A stretch of 64,000 nucleotides of DNA, from assembly GCA_009784975.1 (NCBI GenBank), contig WQXG01000004.1, positions 19,761 to 83,760 on the forward strand. Reading direction: 5' to 3'. The notes beneath the pieces are model-generated. The model ran no database searches and was not told the DNA's origin. It worked only from the letters and a program-made list of their open reading frames with translations. Of the stretch, positions 1,309 to 50,076 are shown piece after piece. Numbering within the stretch: the stretch's first letter is position 1; the number at the start of each line of letters is the position of its first letter. The DNA comes from Treponema sp. Lineage in GTDB: Bacteria; Spirochaetota; Spirochaetia; Treponematales; Breznakiellaceae. Position numbers and translations under genes: made by a program.

Positions 1309-2175
1309 TTACCCCTTCACTCCTCCCAAATTTGTTCCTCTTGCGAAATATTTTTGAATAAAAGGATATATTATCAATACGGGAATGATCGAGCATACCA
1401 GTATCGCAAACATATACGAATCTGCGGCAAAGGGCAGTTCCAAAGGCGAATTGTCTGCGAATTGGGCATAATATTCGATTAACCGGCGCATTGTTACCTG
1501 CAAAGGAGCGTCCGCTTCTTCGCGCAAAAGCAGGTTTGCCCAAAAATATCCGTTCCAGCGGTTGGTTGCATAAAAAAGTGAAACTGTAATAATAGCCGCC
1601 GTTGACATTGGAATATAAATTTTACTGAATAGCTGAAAATCATTCGCCCCGTCTATTGTCGCAGCCTCGTCAATTTCCGCAGGGATTGTTTCAAAATAAC
1701 TGCGAAGAAGTATTATATTAAATGCCTGCACTCCGAACGCAAATACAAAACCCCAGCGGTTGTTAACGCCCATATGATAGTAGTTTAAATATGTAGGAAT
1801 CATGCCCGCACTGAACCACATTGTAAAAACTATAAACAGATTAAACTGGCGGCGGAACAGCAGTTTTTTTCTGGAAAGCGCATAGGCTCCGCATGCGGAA
1901 ATTAACATACTCCATGCCGTTCCAAAAACGGTATAAAATAAAGTGTTAACGTAGGAAAGCCAGAAAGTTTTATTGTTTAAAAGGAATTTGTATACTTCAA
2001 AATTAACATCGCGGGGGAACAGGACTACTTCGCCGAATTCATATGCCATTTTTCCGCTGACAGACGCAGAAAAAGCATAAACTACAGGATACAGCGCCAG
2101 CAGGGAAAAAACACCCGTTAAAAAATAGGCAAAAAATTTAAATGTTATTTCGCTTGCGCCAAGGCGTTTTATCAT
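1309..2175 (-). CDS. carbohydrate ABC transporter permease (MalG/LplC-like)
   Basis: ORF 1309..2229. The internal start MIKRLGASEITF at 2175 avoids overlap with the upstream gene, which ends at 2180. Multi-TM protein with an EAA-loop-type motif, IDEAATIDGANDFQLFSKIYIPM. Confidence 0.85.
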   Translation of the reverse strand: MIKRLGASEITFKFFAYFLTGVFSLLALYPVVYAFSASVSGKMAYEFGEVVLFPRDVNFEVYKFLLNNKTFWLSYVNTLFYTVFGTAWSMLISACGAYALSRKKLLFRRQFNLFIVFTMWFSAGMIPTYLNYYHMGVNNRWGFVFAFGVQAFNIILLRSYFETIPAEIDEAATIDGANDFQLFSKIYIPMSTAAIITVSLFYATNRWNGYFWANLLLREEADAPLQVTMRRLIEYYAQFADNSPLELPFAADSYMFAILVCSIIPVLIIYPFIQKYFARGTNLGGVKG

Positions 2176-2179
2176 ATAA

Positions 2180-3169
2180 TCACCACAATGAGGTCGATGT
2201 GACCCGGCGGCTGATATAATTCGCGCCAATTACAAGAAAAAATCCTATTACCGAATTGAACATATCGATAGCGGAACCCATGCCGGTATTGCTCTGCGTA
2301 CCTACAAACAAAGCCAGCCTGTATGCAAGAGTGCTTAATACGTCTCCTGTTGCATACGTGGAATTATTGTAAAGAAGGATAACTCTTTCGTATCCTACGG
2401 AAAACATATTTCCAATGCGCATTATCAGCATGATTGTCAGGGTTATGGAAATACCCGGCAATGTCACATAACGAAGTTCCTGTATTTTGTTGCCGCCGTC
2501 TACGCGCAAAGCCTCGTACAGTGTAGGAGACACTCCCATTATTGCGGCAAAAAATACAATTGAACTGTAGCCCGCCTCTTTCCAGATGCCCGTTATGCAA
2601 AACAGCGGCCTGAAATACCTCGCCGTTTCCAGTATTTTTCCGTCCGGCGTAAAGCCAAGGTCAAGCATGGCGCGCGCCAACACTCCCGTAGAAATGGAAG
2701 ATTCCTTTAAAAGCATAAGCGCAAGTCCTGTAATTGTTACCTCTGACAAAAAATAGGGCAGATATGTAATTGTCTGCGTAAGTTTGCGGTAAGGTTCATG
2801 GATAATTTCGCTAAAAAGGATTGCAAGAATAATTGGAACGGGAAATGCAAAGATAAGTCCGTAAAGGCTTATCATAAATGTATTTCTAAAAGCGCCCCAG
2901 AATTCCCGTTTGAATGTATCGTTAAACATAAGCTGAGTAAAATTAAAAAAGCCGGCAAAATCGCTGCCAAGAATTCCTTCGTCCGGTTTATAATCCTTAA
3001 AAGCAACCAGAAGACCGCCCATGGGTTTATACACAAACAAAAGATACCAGATTAGCATTGGAATAAGCAGGCAGTATAAACGCCAATCGCGAATAAAAAC
3101 AGAAAGATACTTTTGCCCCGATTCCAGAAAAGCATCATTGTTTTTTAAAAGCGGCTTGTTTAGCGTCAT
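2180..3169 (-). CDS. carbohydrate ABC transporter permease (MalF/LplB-like)
   Basis: ORF 2180..3223. The likely start MTLNKPLLKNN at 3169 lies just after the stop of the GH88 gene at 3180. TM-rich protein with an EAA-type motif, YEALRVDGGNKIQELRYVTLPGI. Confidence 0.85.
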   Translation of the reverse strand: MTLNKPLLKNNDAFLESGQKYLSVFIRDWRLYCLLIPMLIWYLLFVYKPMGGLLVAFKDYKPDEGILGSDFAGFFNFTQLMFNDTFKREFWGAFRNTFMISLYGLIFAFPVPIILAILFSEIIHEPYRKLTQTITYLPYFLSEVTITGLALMLLKESSISTGVLARAMLDLGFTPDGKILETARYFRPLFCITGIWKEAGYSSIVFFAAIMGVSPTLYEALRVDGGNKIQELRYVTLPGISITLTIMLIMRIGNMFSVGYERVILLYNNSTYATGDVLSTLAYRLALFVGTQSNTGMGSAIDMFNSVIGFFLVIGANYISRRVTSTSLW

Positions 3170-3179
3170 ATTTTTCCCA

Positions 3180-4301
3180 TTACCAAATATTAATTTCCAG
3201 ACCCCAAGGGTGGTCACACCCAAGTCTGTTTACGGCTTCCATAAAAAAATAATCGCCGTAAATAAGAGGAACATGCCTTTCTTCCGGTTTACCGTGATAC
3301 TGCGCGGTTGCCATATTTACAATTCCGTCCGCTGCCGGATCCCAGATACAGTGGGATGCTTCTATTGCTTTTAAAATACTAACCGCATTTTTTAAGAACT
3401 CATCGTTTTTTGTTAACTGCCAAAGAACCTGCAGCCCGCAGGCGGCAATTGATCCTGCGGAAGTATCAATTATATCACCGGGCATTTTAAAATCCGCAGG
3501 CGGAATAAACCCGAAACGGGATACTTCTTTGCAAAAATATTCCGCGATACGCTCTGCCGCTTCAAGAAAACGCTTTTCGCCAGAATGACGGAATGAAAGC
3601 GCAAAACCGTACAATGCCCACGCCTGCCCTCTTGTCCATGAAGAGCCGGCTGCGTACCCCTGACCTGCCGGAGTTTCAACTAACGCTCCGTTTAAAGGAT
3701 CAAGGATTGCTATGTGATTGCAGGATCCGTCTTCTCTTACGAGATTTTTAAGGGAGGTATCGGCATGATCAGACGCGATAAACGCAAAGCGCGGATCCTG
3801 GAGCTCTTTGCCTGCCCAATAAAGGAGAGGGAGATTCATCATGCTGTCAACAATAATCCATCCTGTGCAATCACGGTTCCAGGCGCGGATAAATTTTCCG
3901 CGGGGATTGTAACGGCCTGCAAGAAGGGATGCGGCGTGAAGAGCGCGGGTGCGGGCTGTTTTATCGCCTGTAAGCCTAAAATCCAGCACCGAAGAAAGCA
4001 TCCACATAAAACCAACATCGTGGTGCAGACCTTCAAAGCCCGCGAGAGACGCATCAAGTCTTTCCTGTACAGCTCGGGCTGTCAGTAAATATTTTTCTTC
4101 TTTTGACGCATTGTACATGATCCAGAGCATTCCCGGCCAAAAACCGTTGGTCCACCAATATATATTTTCTTTCATTTTATCGGAATATTTTCCGTTTACA
4201 GCGGCATAAGGTACGGATGCTCCCAGCCTGTCACATTGCGCGGACATTTTCAGCGCTATTTTTTCCCAGACTGTTTCTGCCCATGTTGTTATGTTTTCCA
4301 T
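3180..4301 (-). CDS. glycoside hydrolase family 88 (unsaturated glucuronyl/galacturonyl hydrolase-like)
   Basis: 373 aa. Contains YWWTNGFWPGMLW, HDVGFM and WTRGQAWALYGF, which are characteristic of GH88 (alpha/alpha)6 hydrolases. Recognised from memory of the UGL family. Confidence 0.8.
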   Translation of the reverse strand: MENITTWAETVWEKIALKMSAQCDRLGASVPYAAVNGKYSDKMKENIYWWTNGFWPGMLWIMYNASKEEKYLLTARAVQERLDASLAGFEGLHHDVGFMWMLSSVLDFRLTGDKTARTRALHAASLLAGRYNPRGKFIRAWNRDCTGWIIVDSMMNLPLLYWAGKELQDPRFAFIASDHADTSLKNLVREDGSCNHIAILDPLNGALVETPAGQGYAAGSSWTRGQAWALYGFALSFRHSGEKRFLEAAERIAEYFCKEVSRFGFIPPADFKMPGDIIDTSAGSIAACGLQVLWQLTKNDEFLKNAVSILKAIEASHCIWDPAADGIVNMATAQYHGKPEERHVPLIYGDYFFMEAVNRLGCDHPWGLEINIW

Positions 4302-4367
4302 TTTTTTAGTATATCACATTTTATTGTAATATATGCTATAATGAATAATAAAAAATTAGGAGTTTTT

Positions 4368-6686: not shown

Positions 6687-6688
6687 TT

Positions 6689-8913: not shown

Positions 8914-9092
8914 ACTATAAATATTAACACTTTTAAACAAAAAATGCTAATCTAAAAAACTGTCAAGTTATATGGAATTCTTGTATTATTTTCAAATCGT
9001 GTCTGAAATTTGGAATTATAGAGCAGATTACTTAAAATTTACTTAATTGGTATCTTGACTTTATGCCATTTATATTGGATATTGGTAATATG

Positions 9093-39844: not shown

Positions 39845-40858
39845 ATGGGAAAATTTAATTTAAGTTCAATCGAAGATTATGTAGCAAATCACTTAAGGAT
39901 GTTTATCCTTTCAGTTGCAGGGCTGGTAATTTTTGTAGGTATAATTGCGGTATCTGTTTTTTTTATTGCAGTTCACGGCGAGGAACAGACAATGGTTCCC
40001 GATGTCGTTGGCAAGGAATTAACTTCCGCCCTTATGGAATTGCAGGTAAAGGAATTATATCCCCGCCTTCAGCTTCGCTATTCGCAGACTTCCAGAGATA
40101 AGGGGATAATTCTTGAACAGGAACCAAAACCCGGAACCATCGTAAAAGCGGGGCGCCGTATCCGTCTTGTCGTAAGCCAGGGTGTTATTTTAAACAAGGT
40201 TGAGAATTTTGTCACCCGTAACATTGATGAAGTACGGATGGAAATACACGCGATCAATGCGGCATCTGGCGGTCCTCCTCTGCTTTCCATAAAAGAACCC
40301 ATAATGTACGAATTTTCATCAGAAAATCCCGGCGTAATTCTTGAACAAAAACCCGTAAGCGGAACTGATATTTCAGGACCCACATCTTTGGAATTTGTTG
40401 TCAGCAGGGGAAGAGAAAACCGAATGGTAACAGTACCTCAATTATCCGGATTATCAATGTCTGCCGCGCTTACATTAATTTCTTCAAGCGGAATTAACTT
40501 CAGGTTTACCGCGAGAGAAAGAAGCGGTAATGAAAGAGGCGAAACCATTGTGGAGCAAACGCCTGCCGCAAATACATCTGTTTCTATTAATACTCCGGTT
40601 CAGCTAACTGTTACCAATCCTCCAAGTTTGGCAAGCAGTGAAGTTTTTGGAATTTTTTCGTATACAATACCGCAGAATCCCTACCCGTTAATTGTGCGCC
40701 TTGAAACGCAGCTTCCTTCGGGAGAGCGAAGGCTGCTCTTTACCGCAAATTTCCCGGGCGGATTATTTACCGTTCCGTACAGGGTGCCGTCGGGAAGCCT
40801 GCTTATTTTGTCTATGCTTAACCGCGAGCTATACCGCGAAACGGTAGAAAGGAATTAA
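39845..40858 (+). CDS. membrane-anchored PASTA-domain protein with no kinase or PBP domain
   Basis: 337 aa. One N-terminal TM segment, then PASTA-like repeats (VPDVVGKELTSALMELQ...; VTVPQLSGLSMSAALTLI...). Confidence 0.7.
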   Translation: MGKFNLSSIEDYVANHLRMFILSVAGLVIFVGIIAVSVFFIAVHGEEQTMVPDVVGKELTSALMELQVKELYPRLQLRYSQTSRDKGIILEQEPKPGTIVKAGRRIRLVVSQGVILNKVENFVTRNIDEVRMEIHAINAASGGPPLLSIKEPIMYEFSSENPGVILEQKPVSGTDISGPTSLEFVVSRGRENRMVTVPQLSGLSMSAALTLISSSGINFRFTARERSGNERGETIVEQTPAANTSVSINTPVQLTVTNPPSLASSEVFGIFSYTIPQNPYPLIVRLETQLPSGERRLLFTANFPGGLFTVPYRVPSGSLLILSMLNRELYRETVERN

Positions 40859-42519
40859 GATTCCTCTTCTATACGAATACCGGAAACATAAATACTGCCG
40901 CCGTTGCTTAAAACGATTATTGCTATAAATGCTTTTGCCAGATTATCGAATCCCGGGGTGATGGCTAAATCCCGCACATTCAGATAAGTAACAGCGGTTG
41001 CTCTTGTTCCCCGCGCGGAAACAAGCGGTTCAATCAGCAGCTGGGAAGCGGTACCCATTATGGATTGCGCCGCGTTTGCATTGTTATTGTTCACCATTAT
41101 CCACATGTCACGGCTGGCAGGAGCGCTCCAGATAATTTCGTAATCAACAGAAATGCGTATATTTTTATCCGGGGTTAATAAATCAAATACTCCGTCACGA
41201 TGGACATCAGTATCGGTATTGTCATGTATATTGCTGCCAATCATTATTCTGGTACTGTTATGCGAATTAGCGCTGTCAGCACTGCCGTATCGCGGAAATG
41301 CCACCGGATCAGGATTGTTCCCCGATACATTATTTGATGAGTTAAGCAAAAGACCGGATGCCGTATATGGAATAAAATTTCCTTTTACTTTAACGGGCAT
41401 ACCTTCTGCATATTCTCCTCTTCCATACATTTTGTAGTTAACAGCCGATTCATACGAACTAAGCGTAGGACGCGGAGTAAGCGCCGGAAGCTCGGATGTC
41501 GGAGGATTGGGCGGCGTTATATCCAGATTTAAATGCCCGTCGCGCGCGCGATCCCATGCCCATATCGGCAAGGCTTGAGTTTTTACAAGTACAGATGCGT
41601 TTACAGAATTATCGCTGTAATGCGCCGTTACGCGCACAACTGCGGGAGGATCCTTAAAATTGCTTATAGATATGCCTTTTAGAGCGCAAATTTTTCCATT
41701 CGGTTCAATCTGCACCTCTGAAACATTGCCTGTTGTCCATGTAATAGATAAAGGCGTGCCTCCTGCATAGTCCGCTTCTATCTGCACGATGTCATTCGGA
41801 TACAGCCATATAATATTAGTTACAGGCAGTTTCTTTCCTTCACGATCTTCATTTGCAAAATTAATCCGTATTCCCCTGATTGTTATATCCGCAGCTTCTG
41901 TTATCTGCATATTAAAAGTTTTTGAAAAGCCGTTAATAGACGCGGTTATTGTTACATCGCCCTCTATAAGTCCTTTAACAATGCAGCTTCTGCTGCCTGC
42001 AATAGGAACTAGCTCAACCATATCTTGCGGGCTTTGGCTCCACGTTAAATTTCCTGCTGCCCAAAGCGGAATTAGCTCTGCGCTTAAAATCTGCTCTTCG
42101 CCAACTTCAATTTTGGGCAAACCTAAAATATTGTTTACCCCCTCTGCCTGAGCAGCCGCATAAATAAAAACAGAAATTGTTTTTGATACTAACCCGCCTG
42201 TATTGGATTTCCATGCCTTTACCGTAATTGAAACACTTCCTGAAGTATTAATGTTTTCCCCTCTTACGGTACATTCACTCCCAACTCCCGCACTTGTTAT
42301 AACAGCATCGCTTCCTGTAATTTCCCAAATAATTGAAACATTTCCTGCATTTTCTGTCTGTGCTCTTAAAGTAATTTCCTGCCCTTTTTGAACGGCTACA
42401 AAGGAACCCCTCTCCTGATCATCAAGATAAATTCTAACGCTGCCAGGCGATGTATTATCAAATTCAGGGCATCCTGTTAAAGCGAACACAATTACAAAGG
42501 ATAGCAGGATTTTTATCAT
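40855..42519 (-). CDS. surface lipoprotein: three Ig-like (Big_2-type) domains plus the uncharacterised C-terminal module
   Basis: ORF 40855..42555. The start MIKILLSFVIVFALTGC (lipobox) at 42519 overlaps the upstream stop by 4 nt. Ig-like segments include ITVKAWK and VTITASING. The C-terminal module (nt 40858-41571) ends IYVSGIRIEEES. Confidence 0.7.
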   Translation of the reverse strand: MIKILLSFVIVFALTGCPEFDNTSPGSVRIYLDDQERGSFVAVQKGQEITLRAQTENAGNVSIIWEITGSDAVITSAGVGSECTVRGENINTSGSVSITVKAWKSNTGGLVSKTISVFIYAAAQAEGVNNILGLPKIEVGEEQILSAELIPLWAAGNLTWSQSPQDMVELVPIAGSRSCIVKGLIEGDVTITASINGFSKTFNMQITEAADITIRGIRINFANEDREGKKLPVTNIIWLYPNDIVQIEADYAGGTPLSITWTTGNVSEVQIEPNGKICALKGISISNFKDPPAVVRVTAHYSDNSVNASVLVKTQALPIWAWDRARDGHLNLDITPPNPPTSELPALTPRPTLSSYESAVNYKMYGRGEYAEGMPVKVKGNFIPYTASGLLLNSSNNVSGNNPDPVAFPRYGSADSANSHNSTRIMIGSNIHDNTDTDVHRDGVFDLLTPDKNIRISVDYEIIWSAPASRDMWIMVNNNNANAAQSIMGTASQLLIEPLVSARGTRATAVTYLNVRDLAITPGFDNLAKAFIAIIVLSNGGSIYVSGIRIEEES

Positions 42520-42875
42520 CTTAGCCCCTTTGTAATAAACTTTACCTGCGCCCAAATTGCAGGATTAACAGCAGAAACAACTTTTATTACAGCTTCCTTA
42601 TTAGCGGTTCTTCCGGTACGAACAACACCTGCGCTGTCAACTTCTATAAATTCAGGATTATCACTGCTCCATTCAACAATATGCCCGGAAGGAACAATTG
42701 CATACAACCGCTGCACCCTGTTTGTAACAATTTCTATTTCCCTGTCATTTAAAATTTCTCTGCCTGAATAGATAACAATCCCGTCCGCCGATAAATCTGC
42801 ATCAGCATCCGGCTTAAGATCGCAGGCTCCAAGAATAATTAAAGTTAAAACCAAAATAAATACTTTTTTTATCAT
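42516..42875 (-). CDS. small lipoprotein with a single Ig-like (Big_2-type) domain
   Basis: ORF 42516..42908. Likely start MIKKVFILVLTLIILGAC (lipobox). Big_2-like segment EWSSDNPEFIEVDSAGVVRTG...AVIKVVS. Confidence 0.65.
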   Translation of the reverse strand: MIKKVFILVLTLIILGACDLKPDADADLSADGIVIYSGREILNDREIEIVTNRVQRLYAIVPSGHIVEWSSDNPEFIEVDSAGVVRTGRTANKEAVIKVVSAVNPAIWAQVKFITKGLR

Positions 42876-42888
42876 AAAAGTTTCTCTC

Positions 42889-44292
42889 TTAAAAAGAATA
42901 TTCAACATACAAAGGTATGGTGAGCACTGCTTTTTCCTGCATTCCGTTTACAGTCCCTGCAAATCTATATCCAATTCCGCCTTTAACATAACAATTATTA
43001 ATAATAGTTTTTTGAATGGATAAACCTGCGCCTATTCTGTAACCTCCGCTAAGAGCGGCAGGAGTTCCGCTGCCGATAATATTTCCGTTATTGTCATAAG
43101 AAATGCCAATCCATTCAAAACCAAAGTTTAATATTAATCTGCCAAAAGAAAATTCCCAGGAAGGCCATATATGCAGATTCAATTCCGGAGCAAAATAAAC
43201 TCCTGTAACATGACCTTTTAAACTGCCTCCGAATTTTGCATCCAAACGCCCTGCGATTTCAAATGCGTCATATTTATAACGCGCTCCCAATGCAACATGA
43301 TACGGTGCCTGCCAGACTAGCCCTGATTTATAGGCTCTGTAAACAGGATCAAGCAGGCTTTCATCAATTTTTTCAAATATATCAGGCGGGCTTTCTTCCC
43401 AATTCTTAAATGGTATCGGTATTTTGCCGCCAACATCTATCGTTAAACCGGAGATTCCTGTAAATGCAAAAGCTGCTTCTACCCGCGCGGATGTTATATT
43501 AAAAACCGGAATCGCATAAGAAGCAAGTTCTGTCACTGTTTCATTTATAATTTCATCGGTTACTATATTAATGCCTACATGAGGTTTAGCGCCAAAATAC
43601 TGCACGCGCACTGTTCCAACATTTGGAATTGTGTATGCCGCCGCAACCTGAATACGGTGCCAAACCTCTGCGTTTTGCGTAATTAAATCAGGACTGGAAT
43701 TATACACAGTACCGGGCGCGCTTGCATTGGCAAACGGCATCAGATCGTATAACATGGCGCCGAAAAAAAGATTCTCTTTTGGAGTAATACTGAGCATTAA
43801 ACCTGCCTGCCCGTTCCAGTGCGTTCTAAAGCGCGTAAAAATTCCGTCCGCATCGTACATACGGACAGTGTAGGCATGCATTCTTTCATCCTGATCATTT
43901 ATCTGCCCGCGCAGACGGTCGTTTAAAAAACGGCCGGCATCAATCTGCATCCATGGAAAAGGTCTCCACCATGCCTGCAAATAATCTTCTATCGCAACTC
44001 CGTCTGTTCTTGCCTGAATGCGCGTTCTCATCCCAATAATATTTTCATAGGATGCGCGCAAATCAAGGCGTGCCCGAATTCCCTGGCTTGAAGCATTGCG
44101 CCCTGCGCCTGCACCCATTATAACAGCTTCTTTTTCAGGTCCGCCGAAATATGACGGCTCTGTATCTTCATTTAATATAAGCTGAAACGGAATAATCGCC
44201 ATATCCACAGATGTTCCGATTGTAATTTCCGCAAAACACGGGGCTGCAATTATTAAAAATGCTGTCAGATACAGCGTCAGTATTTTTTTCAT
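42889..44292 (-). CDS. predicted outer-membrane beta-barrel protein
   Basis: 467 aa. Signal peptide MKKILTLYLTAFLIIAAPCFA. Many amphipathic strand-like segments (RARLDLRASY, AGLMLSITP, VRVQYFGAK, RVEAAFAFTG, GARYKYDAFEIAGRLDAKFG, GYRIGAGLSIQ). The C-terminus is ...PLYVEYSF. Confidence 0.6.
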   Translation of the reverse strand: MKKILTLYLTAFLIIAAPCFAEITIGTSVDMAIIPFQLILNEDTEPSYFGGPEKEAVIMGAGAGRNASSQGIRARLDLRASYENIIGMRTRIQARTDGVAIEDYLQAWWRPFPWMQIDAGRFLNDRLRGQINDQDERMHAYTVRMYDADGIFTRFRTHWNGQAGLMLSITPKENLFFGAMLYDLMPFANASAPGTVYNSSPDLITQNAEVWHRIQVAAAYTIPNVGTVRVQYFGAKPHVGINIVTDEIINETVTELASYAIPVFNITSARVEAAFAFTGISGLTIDVGGKIPIPFKNWEESPPDIFEKIDESLLDPVYRAYKSGLVWQAPYHVALGARYKYDAFEIAGRLDAKFGGSLKGHVTGVYFAPELNLHIWPSWEFSFGRLILNFGFEWIGISYDNNGNIIGSGTPAALSGGYRIGAGLSIQKTIINNCYVKGGIGYRFAGTVNGMQEKAVLTIPLYVEYSF

Positions 44293-44303
44293 ATCATGCT
44301 CCT

Positions 44304-45680
44304 TTAACGTATCAGTTTATCCATTTCAAAATCTGCAAACAGAACAGCCATTTCGCGTTCTCCTCTTTCATTTTTTTCTTCGCCCAAAAAAGTTAACACA
44401 GGGTTAGCCGGGTCAGGCAATCCAAAAGGTGTCATGTGCAATATACGCCGGTAAACGCCGAACTTGGGACGAATGTAACTGTTAAACGGACGGTACATCA
44501 CAAAAGGATCCGGCTCATTGTATATTGCGGGTGAATAGGTATATTCCATTAATACTTTCATGTCCCTTATACGAACAAGTTTAATGCTGAAAGTACCAGG
44601 ATTATCATAGGTGACGGTTTCTTGCGCGAAAATCCATTCGCCTTTAAAAGGCGCAAGGTCTACTTCGGCAGGATACCAGTTTACACTTGGGTCTCCGTTG
44701 GGACGAATCGGTCCGCGGTAAATTAGCTGCAGCACTTCCCTTCCCGTCCGTAATCTGCGGCCTGTCAAAGTAAAGGTGGGGTTTCCCGAATCTCCGCCTT
44801 CCGGTTTTAACTGATGAATATGCGTAAATTCACTTGATACCCTAAAATCATCCGGCAGGCGGAATTTCCATCTGTGCGTAAATGTATCGCCGTTTCCTCT
44901 TGAATGCATATCGGGATTATCATGCTGGCCATCCATGGTTTTTATTTCCATTCTTTGCCGGTCATCATAACCTCCCACCATGTCACCGTCCAGCTCATGA
45001 TGCATAATAAATCTAAAAACTTCCCTGTGCAAACGAAAAGCTTCTTCCGGCAAATATTCCCAATCTTTTACCTGAACAACATGCGGCACACCTTCATGTA
45101 ATTTACGCAGTTCGGTTTCCAGATAATTATCGCCGTGTATGGTATCTTCGAACGAAACAAGATTTGTCTGGCGGGCGGATAATCCGTCCGGCGCTTCATA
45201 ATGAAACCCCCTATCCCTTATAAGCCGGTAGGATGTCTGCCCGCGCGCATTGTAGGGAACGGCAAAATCTTCATTATAAACATTCATGTTTGCGGATAAA
45301 ATATTGCGGCTAACGTCCGCTGCTTTCCAGTTACGGACAAACACACGAAGCTCGCCGGATCTTTGCGCGGATTCAAATTTTACGATACCCATAACTCCTG
45401 CTTTTCCGGATATTTCAAAATCGGAACCGTTTTTTACAACCTGAATCGAAGGAGAGCCGGATGAAAATGCCGCATCGGTAATTTTAGTGTCAGATAAAAA
45501 ATAATCGTTATAAAGGGAAACAGTTATTGTTTCATCGGGATCGATTACCAAAACATGCAGAAGCGGAGCATAAATTTTTGTTTCTCTTATTTCCAGGCGG
45601 GGGCTTTCCGTTTCCGGCGCATCAGGCTGCAGGCAGGAAGAAAGAAAAATCAATAATATAACATAAAATATTTTAATCAT
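44304..45680 (-). CDS. lipoprotein with an N-terminal Ig-like domain and a concanavalin-like / polysaccharide-lyase-like (PF14099-type) domain
   Basis: 458 aa. Lipobox LLIFLSSC. The core QRMEIKT...GDTFTHRWKFRLPDDFRVSSEFTHIHQLKPEGGDSGNPTFTLTGR...LQLIY resembles the heparin-lyase-I/glucuronan-lyase-like Polysacc_lyase family. This is from memory of the family pattern, with no search run. Confidence 0.45.
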   Translation of the reverse strand: MIKIFYVILLIFLSSCLQPDAPETESPRLEIRETKIYAPLLHVLVIDPDETITVSLYNDYFLSDTKITDAAFSSGSPSIQVVKNGSDFEISGKAGVMGIVKFESAQRSGELRVFVRNWKAADVSRNILSANMNVYNEDFAVPYNARGQTSYRLIRDRGFHYEAPDGLSARQTNLVSFEDTIHGDNYLETELRKLHEGVPHVVQVKDWEYLPEEAFRLHREVFRFIMHHELDGDMVGGYDDRQRMEIKTMDGQHDNPDMHSRGNGDTFTHRWKFRLPDDFRVSSEFTHIHQLKPEGGDSGNPTFTLTGRRLRTGREVLQLIYRGPIRPNGDPSVNWYPAEVDLAPFKGEWIFAQETVTYDNPGTFSIKLVRIRDMKVLMEYTYSPAIYNEPDPFVMYRPFNSYIRPKFGVYRRILHMTPFGLPDPANPVLTFLGEEKNERGEREMAVLFADFEMDKLIR

Positions 45681-45692
45681 TAAAAACTCCCG

Positions 45693-46730
45693 TTAATCCG
45701 CGCTTTCTATTCGTATACCGCGAAGCAGAATCTTGCCCTGCGGCAATGCCAAACAAACAAAGGAACGTGACAGTACTGCGTCTTTTTTTTCGGCATCAGT
45801 GCTTCCCGGAATATCATCTTTTTTTGACGTTGAAAGCGCGGAAAGCGAGTTATCAAATATTCCTGTTAAAATTCCTGTACTCGCGCTTGATTGCGTTAAC
45901 TCCGTAACAAAAGAATTGTTAATTGCCGAAGCATTACGCTGCAGAGTATTGTTGTTTACCTGAATACGCAAAAACGAATCCGCATCCAGCATTTCGTATT
46001 CAACAGAAACGCGCACCCTTCCTGCCCATAGCTCATATCCTTGGGGTCCGTTTAAAAAATCAAATTGCCCGTTTTTATCATAAACCGGATGATCCTCAAA
46101 AGGCGAATTTGTCGCCGTTGCCATTCCGGAGCCGATTAAAAGCTTCGCCCCTGCTCCTTCCAGCACTATCCCGCCGCGTTTCATATCGCTGTAAATTTCC
46201 GTATCTCCTGTGCGAATCAACATTGGAAAACCTGCATCATAAATGTAGTAATTTGTCTGCGCTTCCAATACAGGATTTTCCATCCAGTCGGCATACAGAT
46301 AATTCCATTTAAAAAATGTTTTTGGAATCACATTGATGATACATTCCGCCCCAACAACAATTTCGTTTAAAGTATTCCGCGCGGTAACAAAGATTATAGT
46401 CTTGCCGCCGTTTTTGGCTGTGACAGTAATTTCCTGCCCGGAAAAACCGCTTAATTCCAAAATACTACCATTGCTGCTTTGCCAATGCACTCCGCCCTGC
46501 ACTCCCGCCGGCTCCAGCATAACCCCCAGAATTCCTGACCTTCCTTCGATGAGAGTTATACCCAACACAGGAACCGGATTTTTATTGAATAAAATTGAAA
46601 CACCGTCTACAGGAGATTGAAGATAATTATTTTCCGTTGCCAAACCTTCGGTTTGAGGGCAGCCAAGCATCAGAAGCCCTAAAACTGCGCAAAAAGCCAT
46701 TGTTTTTCTGCCCGAAAAATAATTTAACAT
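45693..46730 (-). CDS. lipoprotein: one Ig-like (Big_2-type) domain plus the uncharacterised C-terminal module
   Basis: 345 aa. The lipobox LLMLGC can be reached from either Met, at 46730 or 46700; promoter geometry favours 46700. Big_2-like segment ITVTAKNGGKTIIFVTA. The module (nt 45696-46319) ends ILLRGIRIESAD. Confidence 0.7.
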   Translation of the reverse strand: MLNYFSGRKTMAFCAVLGLLMLGCPQTEGLATENNYLQSPVDGVSILFNKNPVPVLGITLIEGRSGILGVMLEPAGVQGGVHWQSSNGSILELSGFSGQEITVTAKNGGKTIIFVTARNTLNEIVVGAECIINVIPKTFFKWNYLYADWMENPVLEAQTNYYIYDAGFPMLIRTGDTEIYSDMKRGGIVLEGAGAKLLIGSGMATATNSPFEDHPVYDKNGQFDFLNGPQGYELWAGRVRVSVEYEMLDADSFLRIQVNNNTLQRNASAINNSFVTELTQSSASTGILTGIFDNSLSALSTSKKDDIPGSTDAEKKDAVLSRSFVCLALPQGKILLRGIRIESAD

Positions 46731-46735
46731 AGTTT

Positions 46736-46786
46736 ATTTTACAACAGACTAATTTTCTTGACAACAGGCAATATGGGGGTTATATT
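46736..46786. promoter_or_regulatory. back-to-back divergent sigma70-type promoters sharing an overlapping -35 region
   Basis: Plus strand: TTGACA at 46758-63, a 17-nt spacer, TATATT at 46781-86. Minus strand: TTGTCA as the complement of 46759-64, a 17-nt spacer, TAAAAT as the complement of 46736-41. Confidence 0.55.
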
Positions 46787-46824
46787 TTGATAAACAAGCA
46801 AATAATTCTTTTTTGGAGGGAGTT

Positions 46825-49800
46825 ATGAGAAAGATGGGAATAATACTGATATCTTTAGTTTTAATTTTTACCGGATGTATTGATGAACCGAACGGAAACA
46901 GCATAGAGCCTGTTATTAATGGAATTACATACGGATTTAATGAAGTACCTGTAACCGAAGACGGACTGGTAGAAATCGGCTATCGTAAAGAAGTATTATT
47001 TTCCGCTAACGCAGAAAACGCAACAATATTTTCATGGACTGCGGATGTTCCGGGCAGAGTAACAATAACTCCAAATAACAGCACTACAGCAATGATCAAG
47101 GGAATTGCCGGAGGAGATGTTAGAATAACATTTACCGCTTCTGACGGAACTTCAAGCGCTGTTTTTGAATTTACGATACAGGTTGAACACAGACCTGCAG
47201 AAGGCTTATGGCTGGATGTGATTCATGAAAACGATTTTGTAACAGAAAACCAGGAATTCATCATAAACGAAAAAGATTCCGAAGGTTTAACTTTTATAGC
47301 CGATGCGGCTGAAGATAATGCCGATGTATCAGATGCCGTTACCTGGACAGCGGAACCATCCGGCATAGTTACACTTAGCGTTACTTCCGGCAGCACGGTA
47401 ATAATTACACCGCGTGAAGCAGGAGAAGTTATTATTACAGTAAAAATCACATCTGTTATTTTCGATGACGAAGAATTATCATTTAAAATAATCGTAGAAG
47501 AAGAAAGCTTTGAAAATGTTTTATTCCTGTGGCGCGCATCAGATTACACCGGTTCAATACCAAATATAACAAGCGGCGGCTCAGCACCATCTTTTACCCA
47601 TACCAATTTTGAAAAATTCATGGAACAAAAAGACGGCATGGTAATAAAATCCATGCGCGGTTTTGGCAGCACTGTTACCACCAATGCGAAAGGACTTGCA
47701 TTAGGTTCCGATTCAAGCAATGCGCGGCTTGCCATTGGACAATATGCCAATGAGGGCACTGCGGCAGGTTCCGGCGGCAATCCTCCCGCTCATTCACCGC
47801 AAATGGATCCAATCCCGGATTACGGCGGCGAAATTGATCTTTACCGTAAAAAAGTACGCCTTACCATAGAGTACGCCGATGCCAGCACAATTGCAGGCGG
47901 TTACCTCTTACGCATTTATATCGGCAACAACGGAACAGGCGAAGCAAACTCAATTTTTGGAGCAGCAAGCAATCTTGTATCTTACGGCACAGATCCTCAT
48001 TTTGGAGCCACAGGCACATGGCTGGAAATACTGGATGCATCTGAAGGCAACACCTTAAGCGCAGGAAAAATAATTTTTGAAATTGACACAACAACAGAAA
48101 CCTTCACCTCTCTTGCAAACGAAAGATATCTTGCAAAAACATTTATCGCCCTGCACTGCCAGTCAGGCGGCACCAATAACTACGACGGCAAAATTACAAT
48201 AACAAGCATAAAGCTTGAATACATCGACGGCGAAGAAACACCGGATGTGCTTGCACTGGAAGTAAAAGAAGAAGGCACGGTTGTGCCGTCTGCGGGTATT
48301 ACGATAATTGGACCGGAAGAAAAAAACATTTCTGCGAACGTTACTCCTGTTGCTGATAGTATTACATGGGTAATAACAAATACAGATATTGCTACTGTAC
48401 ATCCAGCTTCAGGACAAAATGTAACAATTGCCGCCGGAACTGAAACCGGTACAACCTCTATCACTGTAACAGCGATTAAAGACGGATATTTTTCTGCAGC
48501 CAGAACATTTAATATTACTGTGCAGAATGTACCAATTGAATTAAGCGTAAAACAGGAAGACGATCCTGTAGGCGCATCAATTCAAATGAAAGAAGGAGAC
48601 CCGTCAATAACTCTTAGCGCAGAAGCAAATCCCAGCACTACTATAAACTGGGAAAGCGATAAACCTGAATTTGTAACAGTTACACCTCTGAACGGCGGAA
48701 CTTCTGCAACCATTACTGCAGAAGCTCCAGGGACAGCAACAATCACCGTTAGCGCTGAACTTGCAGGTTATGAATCTGCACAGAAAATTTTTACTGTTGC
48801 AGTAATTCCGGCAGACGGCGATCCCAATCTTATTTGGGAATGGAATTATGGAACTAACAATGGAGCAAAGGGTACATTTACATCTGCAAGTGATAACGCA
48901 TATCTTGTCGGCAAAGGAGTTCATCCAAAAGCAACAGTTATGCCAATCAGGCTTCAATCCGGCGCAATTGAAAACGATGACACTAAAGGCGGGATCAGAA
49001 TAAACGCATCATCAACTACAGGCATACTTTCAATAGGCACTTCTTCCAACACAGGTTCATTGACTGATTCTTCGCCTGCCGGAGAATTTAATTTTAAAGA
49101 CTTAATAAAAGATTCCGGAAAAATAAAAATAACCATTGCCTGCGAATTTGAAACAGCAGGTCAGGGTAATCGCGCTTTTATTGTCCAGCTTAACAATAAT
49201 ACCAGTGGTGGTACTAATTCGCCATTTGGACAGGCTCCCAGCAGGATTTTCTATTGGCAAAATACTCCGGGCGGCGCTGCTGCTCCAAGCAACTGGAACA
49301 GCGCAGAGGGCTTGGCTGAATGTGTTCAAATTGACAAAAGTTTAACAGACACAAACAATTACCTGGATAAAGTTTTTATTGGCATTGTCGCATTGGGATT
49401 AAATGCCGGAAACGCAGGCTGTACAGTTCTAATTAAAGGCATCAAGATCGAATATGTTCCTGAAGTACCAAGTGATGTTATTTTTGAATGGGATTATAAT
49501 GAAGATGGGTGGACTAATTTAGCTGCAAATGCCAATGGTTCACATGATAGCAAAAATATCAGAGCGGGAGGACAAGATCTTAATAGCCATGCAACAGAAG
49601 ACGGCGTAATCCTGAATGAAGGCGGTAGGTTTATAATCGGCGGCTCTACTACCAGTGTACCGACAACATCTACAACTGTAACTGACACAGGAGGACAGTT
49701 TAATTTTAGCTCTGCTATCACAGCAGGAAGAACGATAAAGATATCTATCGACTATAAGGTTTTAAACAACACTGGCAGCCAATCAAATAAATTTCTAAGA

Positions 49801-50076
49801 ATTCAAGTAAATAATAATACTACTACTAATAATGCTTCTGTACTAAATAATTGGGAAGTAGCAAGAGGTCAAATAGATTCTGGCAGTTTTCCTCAAGAGG
49901 GCACTCTTTCAGGAATATTTAATCCTGGAAGTGCTACTCTAACTACAGCAGCATTAGAATTACCAACTCCATTGGATTTGCAAACAGTACTATCACAATC
50001 ATTAATTGCCATAACCTTACCAGGTAACAGCGGTTCTGTACTCATTAAAAGTGTTAAAATAGAATATACAGATTAA
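46825..50076 (+). CDS. giant surface lipoprotein: Ig-like (Big_2-type) domains interleaved with three copies of the uncharacterised module
   Basis: ORF 46813..50076. ATG at 46825 follows GGAGGGA. Lipobox LIFTGC. Big_2-like segments include VRITFTASDG, ITVTAIKDGY and TITVSAELAGY. The modules end ITITSIKLEYID, VLIKGIKIEYVP and VLIKSVKIEYTD. Confidence 0.8.
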   Translation: MRKMGIILISLVLIFTGCIDEPNGNSIEPVINGITYGFNEVPVTEDGLVEIGYRKEVLFSANAENATIFSWTADVPGRVTITPNNSTTAMIKGIAGGDVRITFTASDGTSSAVFEFTIQVEHRPAEGLWLDVIHENDFVTENQEFIINEKDSEGLTFIADAAEDNADVSDAVTWTAEPSGIVTLSVTSGSTVIITPREAGEVIITVKITSVIFDDEELSFKIIVEEESFENVLFLWRASDYTGSIPNITSGGSAPSFTHTNFEKFMEQKDGMVIKSMRGFGSTVTTNAKGLALGSDSSNARLAIGQYANEGTAAGSGGNPPAHSPQMDPIPDYGGEIDLYRKKVRLTIEYADASTIAGGYLLRIYIGNNGTGEANSIFGAASNLVSYGTDPHFGATGTWLEILDASEGNTLSAGKIIFEIDTTTETFTSLANERYLAKTFIALHCQSGGTNNYDGKITITSIKLEYIDGEETPDVLALEVKEEGTVVPSAGITIIGPEEKNISANVTPVADSITWVITNTDIATVHPASGQNVTIAAGTETGTTSITVTAIKDGYFSAARTFNITVQNVPIELSVKQEDDPVGASIQMKEGDPSITLSAEANPSTTINWESDKPEFVTVTPLNGGTSATITAEAPGTATITVSAELAGYESAQKIFTVAVIPADGDPNLIWEWNYGTNNGAKGTFTSASDNAYLVGKGVHPKATVMPIRLQSGAIENDDTKGGIRINASSTTGILSIGTSSNTGSLTDSSPAGEFNFKDLIKDSGKIKITIACEFETAGQGNRAFIVQLNNNTSGGTNSPFGQAPSRIFYWQNTPGGAAAPSNWNSAEGLAECVQIDKSLTDTNNYLDKVFIGIVALGLNAGNAGCTVLIKGIKIEYVPEVPSDVIFEWDYNEDGWTNLAANANGSHDSKNIRAGGQDLNSHATEDGVILNEGGRFIIGGSTTSVPTTSTTVTDTGGQFNFSSAITAGRTIKISIDYKVLNNTGSQSNKFLRIQVNNNTTTNNASVLNNWEVARGQIDSGSFPQEGTLSGIFNPGSATLTTAALELPTPLDLQTVLSQSLIAITLPGNSGSVLIKSVKIEYTD

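What the first reader, a model, noticed from the sequence alone, without database searches (positions are those of the whole stretch)
40855..50076. Divergent six-gene surface locus: Ig-like lipoproteins, a beta-barrel and a lyase-like lipoprotein built around a shared uncharacterised module
A consensus back-to-back promoter pair at 46736-46786 drives a five-gene minus-strand operon with stop/start overlaps or gaps of 14 nt or less. In transcription order its products are:
- lipoprotein E: Big_2 plus the module;
- lipoprotein D: an Ig-like domain plus a ConA-like, lyase-like domain;
- a 467-aa predicted beta-barrel;
- a small single-Big_2 lipoprotein;
- lipoprotein A: three Big_2 domains plus the module.

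The same promoter pair drives, on the plus strand, a 1083-aa lipoprotein carrying three further copies of the module. Every product is exported, five of them with lipoboxes. The layout of surface glycan-binding lipoproteins, an outer-membrane channel and a degradative enzyme resembles a Bacteroidota PUL (SusC/D plus SGBPs). It has no SusC/D or TonB components and it occurs in a spirochaete. I cannot place the module or the barrel in any characterised family, which makes this the best candidate in the window for an undescribed system. It may capture and degrade surface polysaccharide or host matrix, or act as an adhesin.
Basis: partly seen in the sequence, partly recalled or inferred. Interest (0 to 1): 0.8.

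Follow-up and report, generated by a model that had tools for sequence, protein, structure and literature searches.

The report
Spirochaete outer-membrane uronate-polysaccharide harvesting locus
A six-gene cluster in an uncultured Treponema most likely forms the cell-surface half of a system that catches, cuts and imports a glucuronic-acid-containing polysaccharide, built from a lyase, an unclassified pore protein and lipoproteins carrying an undescribed domain rather than the SusC/SusD parts used by Bacteroidota.

Summary
Six intact genes lie at 40855-50076: F diverges from E-D-C-B-A across a 154-bp spacer that carries the two best sigma-70-like sites in the region. Five products have lipoboxes. 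C is a confidently modelled beta-barrel.

The shared ~210-aa module is real, with five copies. It matches no Pfam, NCBIfam or PDB family and occurs in only 188 of 1.84 billion protein cluster representatives.

New evidence:
- **Synteny:** the six genes are syntenic in other Treponema/Spirochaetaceae MAG species at 30-60% identity.
- **Neighbours:** in relatives the locus sits beside a GH88 unsaturated glucuronyl hydrolase, a second PF14099-like lyase, KduI, KduD, ABC permeases and an IclR regulator.
- **Operator:** a TGTTCG-N6-CGAACA palindrome lies in the divergent promoter region of relatives. The window lacks both the operator and IclR, but has a GH88-ABC operon 37 kb away.
- **Module elsewhere:** it is fused to a heparinase-II-like lyase and repeated in PL1/CE8 pectinolytic enzymes.

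Best reading: this is the outer-membrane and surface part of a lyase-based utilisation system for a glucuronate-containing polysaccharide. It works like a PUL or a KdgR regulon but belongs to neither. Substrate, surface exposure and module binding are untested. I rate it a new variant of a known kind.

The parts
46825..50076 (+). Gene F: 1083-aa lipoprotein (lipobox FTGC). Architecture Ig-Ig-module-Ig-Ig-module-module. The longest ORF starts at 46813.
   Evidence: ORF; gene call; modules; Ig domains; Big_2 33.8 bits
47506..48228 (+). F module copy 1 (aa 232-472 in 1087-aa numbering)
   Evidence: domain iE 8.7e-52
48817..49458 (+). F module copy 2 (aa 669-882)
   Evidence: domain iE 3.6e-55
49465..50073 (+). 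F module copy 3 (aa 885-1087)
   Evidence: domain iE 5e-61; 32% identical to the E module by BLASTP
46736..46786 (.). Back-to-back sigma-70-like promoter pair with overlapping -35 hexamers. Plus strand 46758-46786, minus strand 46764-46736.
   Evidence: 11/12 and 10/12 matches, the two best in 10 kb; sequence. Activity not tested. The TGTTCG-N6-CGAACA operator seen in relatives is absent here.
45693..46670 (-). Gene E: 325-aa lipoprotein with one Big_2-like Ig domain and one module. The longest ORF starts at 46730.
   Evidence: AF2 model pLDDT 90.9; 45 homologues in alignment A4
45696..46334 (-). E module (aa 133-345 in 345-aa numbering): beta-sandwich of about 12 strands
44304..45680 (-). Gene D: 458-aa lipoprotein (LSSC). 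It has a lineage-specific N-terminal domain and a PF14099-like beta-jelly-roll polysaccharide-lyase domain.
44307..45242 (-). D lyase-like domain (aa 147-458). Invariant residues: Y151, E162, H200, H227, D231, R241-Q242-R243-x-E245, W271, H287, Q290, K292, R308, R404, K406, Y410, R411.
   Evidence: alignment A2; Pfam on family members
42889..44292 (-). Gene C: 467-aa outer-membrane beta-barrel. It has a signal-peptidase-I signal and a conserved C-terminal Phe. A conserved lumen-facing Arg cluster (R73, 75, 79, 89, 91, 95) lies near a conserved 42-aa internal loop (121-162).
42516..42875 (-). Gene B: 119-aa lipoprotein (LGAC) with a single Big_2-like domain. It always follows the barrel gene.
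40855..42519 (-). Gene A: 554-aa lipoprotein (LTGC) with two to three Ig-like domains and one module.
40861..41568 (-). A module (aa 330-565 in 566-aa numbering)
   Evidence: domain iE 1.2e-44
1309..4301 (-). Likely downstream partner elsewhere in the window: GH88 unsaturated glucuronyl hydrolase (3180-4301) followed by two ABC permease genes (2180-3223, 1309-2229).
   Evidence: GH88: PDB 1vd5 E 5.9e-55; 67% identical to the GH88 adjacent to the locus in L006; Pfam. The functional link is inferred from adjacency in relatives.

Best explanation
The six genes encode the outer-membrane and surface part of a lyase-based utilisation system for an acidic polysaccharide, most likely one containing glucuronate.

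Proposed steps:
1. Lipoproteins E, A, F and perhaps B hold an undescribed ~210-aa beta-sandwich module on Ig-like stalks. The module acts as a non-catalytic binding module that captures the polymer.
2. Lipoprotein D, a distant PF14099-type beta-jelly-roll lyase, cuts the polymer by beta-elimination.
3. The porin-like barrel C admits the unsaturated oligosaccharides to the periplasm. C has a conserved arginine cluster and an internal loop.
4. An ABC transporter, GH88 unsaturated glucuronyl hydrolase, KduI and KduD then convert the products to KDG.

In relatives an adjacent IclR (KdgR-like) repressor probably controls both arms of the divergent promoter through a TGTTCG-N6-CGAACA operator. The window copy has lost that control, or never had it.

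Shown here:
- gene content and synteny;
- fold of E and C;
- family links of D and GH88;
- genomic association with the uronate pathway;
- the operator motif in relatives;
- the module's presence in true lyases.

Inferred:
- binding by the module;
- lyase activity of D;
- transport by C;
- surface location;
- substrate identity.
For: **D is lyase-like**
- The identical NCBI protein is named polysaccharide lyase, and D hits Bacteroidota proteins bearing PF14099 at E 1e-38 to 1e-21.
- 33 of 42 family members match PF14099.
- Invariant His, Tyr, Arg, Gln and Lys residues are consistent with beta-jelly-roll lyases.

**Synteny**
- F|E-D-C-B-A is conserved in L003, L004 and L005.
- It is also conserved in L006 to L009.

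**Catabolic neighbours**
- L006: LUD, GH88, PL592, then F, EDCBA, IclR, KduI, KduD.
- L008: ABC, LUD, GH88, PL697, then F-like, EDCBA, IclR.
- L009: EDCBA, IclR, KduI, KduD.
- L007: ABC, LUD, two F-like genes, EDCBA, IclR.
- L005: GH88 directly after A.
- In the window, a GH88 gene (1vd5, E 5.9e-55) plus two ABC permeases lie at 1.3-4.3 kb.

**Operator**
- In L003/L009, L006 and L008 there are two copies in the F-E spacer. In L003/L009 the second copy has two mismatches.
- L004 has two 2-mismatch copies just upstream of E, where the contig begins.
- L007 has one copy in the spacer plus one 2-mismatch copy upstream of the LUD-ABC genes.

**Module in true enzymes**
- P0302 carries the module at 53-272 followed by a heparinase-II-like lyase (62.9 bits, iE 3.6e-12).
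- The module is repeated in PL1 and PL1+CE8 proteins P0356 and P0364. hhalign of their repeats against the module gives Prob 97.1, E 7.5e-11.

**Module fold**
- It is a beta-sandwich. Low-TM (below 0.3) hits include the CBM-bearing 7jrm (CBM51-2), SGBP-B, a SusE-like protein, and LamG-like and ConA-like jelly-roll proteins.

**Barrel**
- Confident barrel model.
- Amphipathic strands, an Arg cluster, a conserved loop and a conserved C-terminal Phe.
Against: - No biochemical data exist for any of the six products.
- D itself is below the Pfam gathering score (18.8 against 29.9 bits). Its family has no solved relative detectable by sequence, so catalysis and substrate are unproven.
- In the window the locus is flanked by housekeeping genes (def, fmt, a PASTA protein; MgtC, XseAB, MutL). 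It has neither the operator nor IclR, KduI or KduD within 64 kb.
- The module shows no specific structural match to a known CBM. The Foldseek searches used the two-domain model and gave TM below 0.3.
- No sulfatases or other clues fix the substrate.
- Surface versus periplasmic location of spirochaete lipoproteins cannot be predicted from sequence.
Confidence: 0.6

Rival explanations
1. Surface adhesin or coat. The Ig-stalked lipoproteins with lectin-like modules attach the treponeme to a partner surface such as host gut lining, protist or fibre. D only remodels that matrix locally and C is an unrelated porin. The system is not nutritional.
For: - Architectures rich in Big_2/Ig domains are typical of adhesins.
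- Foldseek also hits antigen I/II adhesins, intimin and S-layer proteins.
- The window copy has no adjacent catabolic genes.
Against: - Five of six related loci place it next to GH88, KduI, KduD, ABC or IclR genes.
- In L007 and L008 the F-like gene lies on the same strand directly upstream of a lyase, GH88 and/or ABC permease genes.
- A shared operator spans both arms.
- The module occurs in soluble multi-domain lyases.
Confidence: 0.15
2. Exopolysaccharide export and trimming apparatus, analogous to alginate AlgE (barrel), AlgL (lyase) and AlgK (lipoprotein). The barrel exports a self-made acidic polymer and D edits it.
For: - AlgE is among the fold hits (8pz4, TM 0.44).
- Lyase plus barrel plus lipoproteins is also the make-up of secretion systems (established knowledge of the alginate system).
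- The barrel has an Arg-rich lumen.
Against: - No glycosyltransferase, polymerase, copolymerase or c-di-GMP receptor gene lies in or beside any of the seven loci examined.
- The neighbours are catabolic instead: GH88, KduI, KduD and ABC importer permeases.
- Pfam Alginate_exp does not match C.
Confidence: 0.07
3. The module is itself a new catalytic domain (a lyase, hydrolase or esterase) rather than a binding module. E, A and F would then be enzymes.
For: - It is large for a CBM (~210 aa).
- It has strongly conserved polar motifs (NNN-T, G-x-F-D-F, terminal I-x-I-E).
- It has no known family.
Against: - It is present in up to three tandem copies per protein, and in up to about five repeats in PL1 enzymes that already carry a catalytic domain. 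That pattern is typical of accessory modules.
- Profile comparison with the D lyase family shows no relation.
- Only W, G, N, L and E are invariant. No obvious acid/base pair stands out.
Confidence: 0.1

Closest known systems
Bacteroidota polysaccharide utilisation loci (SusC/SusD with SusE/F-type SGBPs and surface enzymes)
   Same: - A co-transcribed set of surface lipoproteins, a surface-anchored degradative enzyme and an outer-membrane transporter.
- Binders are built as Ig-like stalks carrying a distal beta-sandwich module, as in SusE/F and SGBP-B. Foldseek returns 6e57 and 7m1b among its hits.
- Linked to downstream glycosidases and a dedicated regulator.
   Different: - There is no TonB-dependent SusC and no SusD.
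- The transporter is a plug-less, porin-like barrel, so uptake would be passive.
- The regulator in relatives is IclR type.
- The host is a spirochaete.
KdgR regulon of pectinolytic Enterobacterales (Pel lyases, KdgM/KdgN oligogalacturonate porins, Tog transporters, KduI/KduD, IclR-family KdgR). Recalled from established literature.
   Same: - A lyase produces unsaturated oligouronides.
- A dedicated outer-membrane channel is present.
- KduI and KduD follow downstream.
- An IclR-family regulator has a palindromic operator in front of several operons.
   Different: - C is 467 aa and does not match KdgM or any other Pfam family.
- The lyase is lipid-anchored rather than secreted.
- GH88 points to glucuronyl rather than galacturonyl substrates.
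- Extra module-bearing lipoproteins are present.
- The window copy lacks the regulator and the operator.
PF14099 polysaccharide lyases (per Pfam: heparin lyase I, PL13; glucuronan lyase, PL20)
   Same: D and its relatives match this Pfam model. They conserve His, Tyr, Arg and Gln positions of the kind used by beta-jelly-roll lyases.
   Different: - D is below the gathering threshold.
- Profiles of the family detect no solved lyase structure.
- It is probably a separate, uncharacterised family. The CAZy family could not be assigned because dbCAN was not available.
General and substrate-specific porins (OmpF/PorB/MOMP, OprP, AlgE, ChiP)
   Same: - A beta-barrel with amphipathic strands.
- An internal loop facing a cluster of conserved lumen arginines.
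- A C-terminal Phe.
   Different: - TM to every solved barrel is 0.47 or lower, normalised to the query.
- DSSP on the model lists more strand segments (about 18-22) than the 16 of a general porin. The strand number itself was not determined.
- There is no sequence-family match.
- 54 homologues were found, and every one that carries a name is from a Treponema/Spirochaetaceae MAG.

Membership tests
Bacteroidota-type PUL | Adjacent SusC-like TonB-dependent transporter and SusD-like lipoprotein | tested here: not met
   No TBDT, plug or SusD Pfam or NCBIfam match in any of the six products or in neighbours of the related loci.
Bacteroidota-type PUL | Co-localised CAZyme(s) and surface glycan-binding lipoproteins | tested here: inconclusive
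   A lyase-like lipoprotein D and module-bearing lipoproteins are present. Glycan binding and surface exposure were not tested.
PF14099 Polysacc_lyase (PL13/PL20-type beta-jelly-roll lyases) | Score above the Pfam gathering threshold | tested here: not met
   D scores 18.8 bits against a cut-off of 29.9. 33 of 42 relatives match at E<=0.01, best 9.9e-9. This indicates distant homology, not clear membership.
PF14099 Polysacc_lyase (PL13/PL20-type beta-jelly-roll lyases) | Beta-eliminative cleavage of a uronate polymer with a His/Tyr catalytic pair | not testable with these tools
   Invariant H200, H227, H287, Y151, Y410, R241, R243 and Q242 are compatible.
Big_2 bacterial Ig-like domain (PF02368) | Pfam match and Ig-like beta-sandwich fold | tested here: met
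   F scores 33.8 bits, above 22.8. The Ig domain of the E model matches lambda gpV Big_2 (2l04, TMt 0.67, 26% identity). A, B and E are sub-threshold by Pfam.
Outer-membrane beta-barrel proteins | Signal peptide, closed amphipathic beta-barrel, C-terminal aromatic residue | tested here: met
   AF2 pLDDT 84, pTM 0.81. Foldseek probability is 1.0 to many porins. Strands alternate hydrophobic and polar faces, and F467 is conserved at 95%.
KdgM/NanC oligouronide porins and AlgE alginate porin | Match to PF06178 (KdgM) or PF13372 (Alginate_exp) | tested here: not met
   No Pfam family matches C at E<=1. AlgE is only a TM 0.44 fold hit.
Known carbohydrate-binding modules | Sequence match to a described CBM family, or demonstrated glycan binding | tested here: not met
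   No Pfam, NCBIfam or PDB match for the module. There is only generic beta-sandwich fold resemblance. dbCAN was not available. Binding is not testable here.
KdgR/IclR-controlled uronate regulon | IclR-family regulator with a shared palindromic operator in front of the operons, plus KduI/KduD | tested here: inconclusive
   Met in relatives L003/L009, L006, L007 and L008. Not met in the window: there are 0 operator matches at <=2 mismatches and no IclR, KduI or KduD. Binding of the regulator to the palindrome is inferred.
GH88 unsaturated glucuronyl hydrolase (window 3180-4301) | Full-length similarity to characterised UGL structures | tested here: met
   phmmer against the PDB gives 1vd5 at E 5.9e-55 over residues 23-360. 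Pfam PF07470 scores 34.3 bits, above 26.6.

The most novel reading that the evidence does not exclude
Spirochaetes have independently evolved a SusCD-like 'utilisome'. In this reading the unclassified barrel C forms a stable outer-membrane complex with the small lipoprotein B as a lid or tether. The lyase D and the module-bearing lipoproteins E, A and F join the same complex. Capture, cleavage and import of an acidic glycan would then be physically coupled without TonB energy. The module would found a new CBM family specific for polyuronates, shared with marine PL1 and heparinase-II-like enzymes.
Probability: 0.2. Interest if true: 0.8.

Novelty: new variant of a known kind. Interest (0 to 1): 0.62.

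Why it matters
Glycan foraging at the outer membrane is understood in molecular detail mainly for Bacteroidota (SusC/D) and for a few proteobacterial porin systems. How spirochaetes, which are major fibre- and host-associated fermenters, take up polysaccharides across their unusual lipoprotein-rich outer membrane is essentially undescribed.

This locus offers four things:
- a concrete, conserved and testable set of parts;
- two protein families with no annotation: a ~210-aa module found in only 188 of 1.84 billion cluster representatives, and a porin family whose 54 detected homologues are all from Treponema/Spirochaetaceae MAGs wherever a name is given;
- a distant lyase family with no solved structure;
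- a candidate operator for an IclR regulator.

If the module binds polyuronates, it would also annotate unexplained repeats in large pectinolytic and heparinase-like enzymes of other phyla.

Tried and rejected
- **PDB profile searches:** the module, the D family and its Bacteroidota branch returned no relevant hits. Only T9SS tails matched.
- **Profile comparison of the module with the lyase domain** showed no relation, so the module is not a degenerate copy of D.
- **Foldseek on the whole E model**, against PDB and BFVD, was dominated by the Ig domain and by multi-domain sandwiches. It cannot assign the module.
- **Foldseek on the barrel** gave generic porins only. The FadL top hit has TM 0.28, so I do not call C a FadL or a general porin member.
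- **First reading of the pectate-lyase hits:** the per-domain scores are only 10-19 bits, so I treated them as unproven. A separate hhalign of the repeats then gave Prob 97.1.
- **Operator search in the window**, and a search for motifs shared between the window's GH88 promoter and the E/F spacer, found nothing.
- **Promoter scan enrichment** was not above chance overall.
- **Literature searches** found no description of this locus, module or barrel. The termite-gut origin of the MAGs rests on my recollection of the isolate naming and could not be verified.
- **NCBIfam** gave nothing.

Full report
**1. What is there**

The window holds six intact ORFs at the stated coordinates. Two independent public assemblies carry the same DNA (ENA ERZ27264051 and Logan SRR10512954). 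Their gene calls are A 554 aa, B 119, C 467, D 458, E 325 and F 1083. NCBI holds the identical D protein as 'MAG: polysaccharide lyase [Treponema sp.]'.

With the called starts the minus-strand genes are separated by 12, 11 and 13 nt and a 4-nt overlap, which fits one operon. The 154-bp spacer between E and F contains the two best sigma-70-like sites of the 10-kb region. These are TTGACA-17-TATATT on the plus strand and TTGTCA-17-TAAAAT on the minus strand, with overlapping -35 hexamers. The overall number of promoter-like sites is not above chance, so only their position and score count. Activity is untested.

Five products start with a hydrophobic stretch ending in a lipobox cysteine (LTGC, LGAC, LSSC, MLGC, FTGC). 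C has a cleavable signal ending CFA/E. This was read from the sequence, as no predictor was available.

**2. The shared module**

The five copies align over about 210 residues at roughly 25% identity. Recurrent motifs are F-x-W near the start, R-L-x-I-G, G-x-F-D-F, L-R-I-Q-V-N-N-N-T and a terminal I-x-I-E. An HMM locates them at E 133-345, A 330-565 and F 232-472, 669-882, 885-1087.

Pfam, NCBIfam and a PDB profile search find nothing. The E model is confident (pLDDT 90.9, pTM 0.84). It shows an N-terminal Ig domain that matches the lambda gpV Big_2 domain, and a C-terminal beta-sandwich of about 12 strands. Foldseek gives only low-TM resemblance to CBM-like, LamG-like and ConA-like sandwiches and to SGBP-B and SusE-like proteins.

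An exhaustive HMMER search of 1.84 billion cluster representatives found 188 proteins at E<=0.001. 86 of the 143 newly returned hits that I checked have lipobox-like N-termini. The strong hits combine the module only with Ig-type domains.

Three informative exceptions exist.
- P0302 has the module at 53-272 in front of a heparinase-II-like lyase (62.9 bits, iE 3.6e-12).
- P0356 carries PL1. Its cluster includes a 'pectate lyase family protein [Neptunicella sp.]'.
- P0364 carries CE8 plus PL1.

The last two contain several weak copies of the module. Individually those copies score only 10-19 bits. However, an alignment of the repeats compared with the module profile gives hhalign probability 97.1%, E 7.5e-11 over 146 columns, and the same motifs line up.

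The module is unrelated to the D lyase domain. I therefore read it as an undescribed accessory module that travels with uronate-polysaccharide lyases. It most likely binds carbohydrate.

**3. The lyase-like protein D**

D matches PF14099 below threshold. It has many relatives:
- Treponema orthologues at 41-78% identity;
- Bacteroidota proteins at E 1e-38 to 1e-21, which carry PF14099 together with T9SS tails or DUF4998.

33 of 42 sampled members match PF14099. Residues 147-458 are shared with those relatives and hold about 25 invariant positions. These include D-R-Q-R-x-E-I-K, H-I-H-Q-x-K and R-P-K-x-G-x-Y-R. From my own knowledge, these recall the Arg / Gln-His / Tyr signature strands of beta-jelly-roll lyases. 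That is a lead, not a test.

Profiles of the family find no solved lyase. This is a distant, structurally uncharacterised branch.

**4. The barrel C**

54 homologues were found. Every one that carries a name is from a Treponema or Spirochaetaceae MAG, and none has a Pfam domain. The model is a closed barrel (pLDDT 84, pTM 0.81). Foldseek hits hundreds of porins with probability 1, but TM is 0.47 or lower relative to the query. MOMP, PorB, OprP and AlgE are the best by TM.

Strands alternate a hydrophobic and a polar face. The polar face carries nine arginines that are at least 90% conserved, six of them on two neighbouring strands (R73, 75, 79, 89, 91, 95). A 42-residue, highly conserved loop (121-162) follows strand 6. 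The C-terminal Phe is conserved.

This is the layout of a porin with an internal constriction loop facing a basic wall. It is compatible with passage of anionic oligosaccharides, though that function is inferred.

A 29%-identical homologue stands alone next to PTS and GH1 genes. The barrel family is therefore not confined to this locus.

**5. Synteny and context**

A scan of one genome per GTDB species found three loci, in two Treponema MAGs and one Spirochaetaceae MAG. Wherever the contig reaches far enough, each has F diverging from E-D-C-B-A, at 30-60% protein identity.

Contigs found through barrel homologues show what lies around the locus.

| Locus | Gene order |
|---|---|
| L006 | LUD-domain, GH88, PF14099-like lyase (592 aa), F, E D C B A, IclR, KduI, KduD-like SDR |
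| L008 | ABC permease, LUD, GH88, lyase (697 aa), 228-aa gene, F-like, E D C B A, IclR |
| L009 (=L003) | F, E D C B A, IclR, KduI, KduD |
| L007 | ABC permease, LUD, 197-aa gene, two F-like genes, E D C B A, IclR |
| L005 | GH88 directly after A |

In L007 and L008 the F-like genes and the downstream catabolic and transport genes lie on the same strand. The divergent promoter region would therefore serve two arms.

That spacer contains a near-perfect palindrome, TGTTCGTATATACGAACA.
- It occurs twice in L003/L009, L006 and L008. In L003/L009 the second copy has two mismatches.
- L004 has two 2-mismatch copies just upstream of E, where the contig begins.
- L007 has one copy in the spacer plus a 2-mismatch copy in front of the LUD-ABC genes.

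This palindrome is the obvious candidate operator for the adjacent IclR-family regulator. That is an inference by analogy with KdgR.

**6. The window copy**

It has none of these neighbours. It sits between def-fmt-PASTA and mgtC-xseAB-mutL. It has no operator at up to two mismatches. No IclR, KduI or KduD lies within 64 kb.

It does have a GH88 gene at 3180-4301, 67% identical to the one next to the locus in L006. That gene is a clear unsaturated glucuronyl hydrolase (1vd5, E 5.9e-55). Two ABC permease genes follow it.

The simplest reading is that an ancestral locus of about 20 kb was split in this genome.

**7. Mechanism**

I favour this sequence of events:
1. Module-bearing lipoproteins capture the polymer.
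2. Lipoprotein D cleaves it by beta-elimination.
3. Barrel C admits the oligosaccharides.
4. ABC import and GH88 release the unsaturated uronate.
5. KduI and KduD convert it to KDG.

GH88 argues for a glucuronate-containing polymer rather than homogalacturonan. No sulfatase was seen in any flank, which weakly argues against sulfated glycosaminoglycans. The actual substrate is unknown.

Rivals considered are an adhesin or coat role, an AlgE/AlgL/AlgK-like export machine, and a catalytic rather than binding module. The catabolic context and the multi-copy accessory pattern of the module count against them, but none is excluded.

**8. Comparison and novelty**

The system works like a Bacteroidota PUL or the enterobacterial KdgR regulon, but it fails the defining tests of both. 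It has no SusC/SusD and no KdgM-family porin. D is at best a distant PF14099 relative. The module and the barrel are unannotated families.

I found no paper describing the locus. I rate it a new variant of a known kind, with moderately high interest. The logic is familiar. The parts and the phylum are not, and every step is directly testable.

Noticed in passing
L003/L009 7078-7095 and 7277-7294; L006 7112-7129 and 7313-7330; L008 7151-7168 and 7349-7366; L007 7102-7119 and 945-962; L004 83-100 and 295-312: A conserved palindrome, TGTTCG-N6-CGAACA, lies in the F-E spacer of relatives that have an adjacent IclR gene. In L007 a 2-mismatch copy also sits in front of the LUD-ABC genes. It is a candidate operator of a KdgR-like regulator. 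It is absent from the window.
   Followed up: partly
window 1309-4301 (-): A GH88 unsaturated glucuronyl hydrolase (1vd5, E 5.9e-55) is followed by two ABC permease genes. The same GH88 type is adjacent to the locus in relatives, so this is probably the displaced downstream half of the pathway.
   Followed up: partly
window 4236-8062 (+): A GH36 alpha-galactosidase (Melibiase, E 1.6e-134) and an MFS_2 sugar transporter diverge from the GH88 operon. This is a separate melibiose/raffinose-type uptake unit.
   Followed up: no
L010 10001-11386: A 29%-identical homologue of barrel C (P0110, a Spirochaetaceae MAG) stands alone beside PTS and GH1 genes. The barrel family is therefore broader than this locus and may be a general spirochaete sugar porin family.
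   Followed up: no
L006 1-300, L007 294-929, L008 499-1134: A 211-aa LUD-domain (PF02589) protein is conserved between GH88 and the ABC permease in the related loci. Its role in uronate use is unexplained.
   Followed up: no
L006 1430-3208, L008 2266-4359: A second, larger PF14099-like lyase (592-697 aa) lies upstream of GH88 in relatives. Its C-terminal ~280 aa are 33% identical to D. The window has no copy.
   Followed up: partly
window 40855-40858: The stop codon of gene A overlaps by 4 nt the stop of the convergent PASTA-domain gene (39845-40858). No room is left for a terminator between the two convergent units.
   Followed up: no
L006 3339-4207: Three small plus-strand genes, one of them matching dnstrm_HI1420 and so perhaps toxin-antitoxin-like, are inserted between F and the lyase-GH88 genes. 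They interrupt what is one same-strand arm in L008.
   Followed up: no
window 9063-12770 and 31866-38326: CheA and a CheW-CheR fusion gene, and an AddAB-like helicase-nuclease pair (UvrD plus PDDEXK_1), are ordinary housekeeping genes that separate the GH88 operon from the locus.
   Followed up: no
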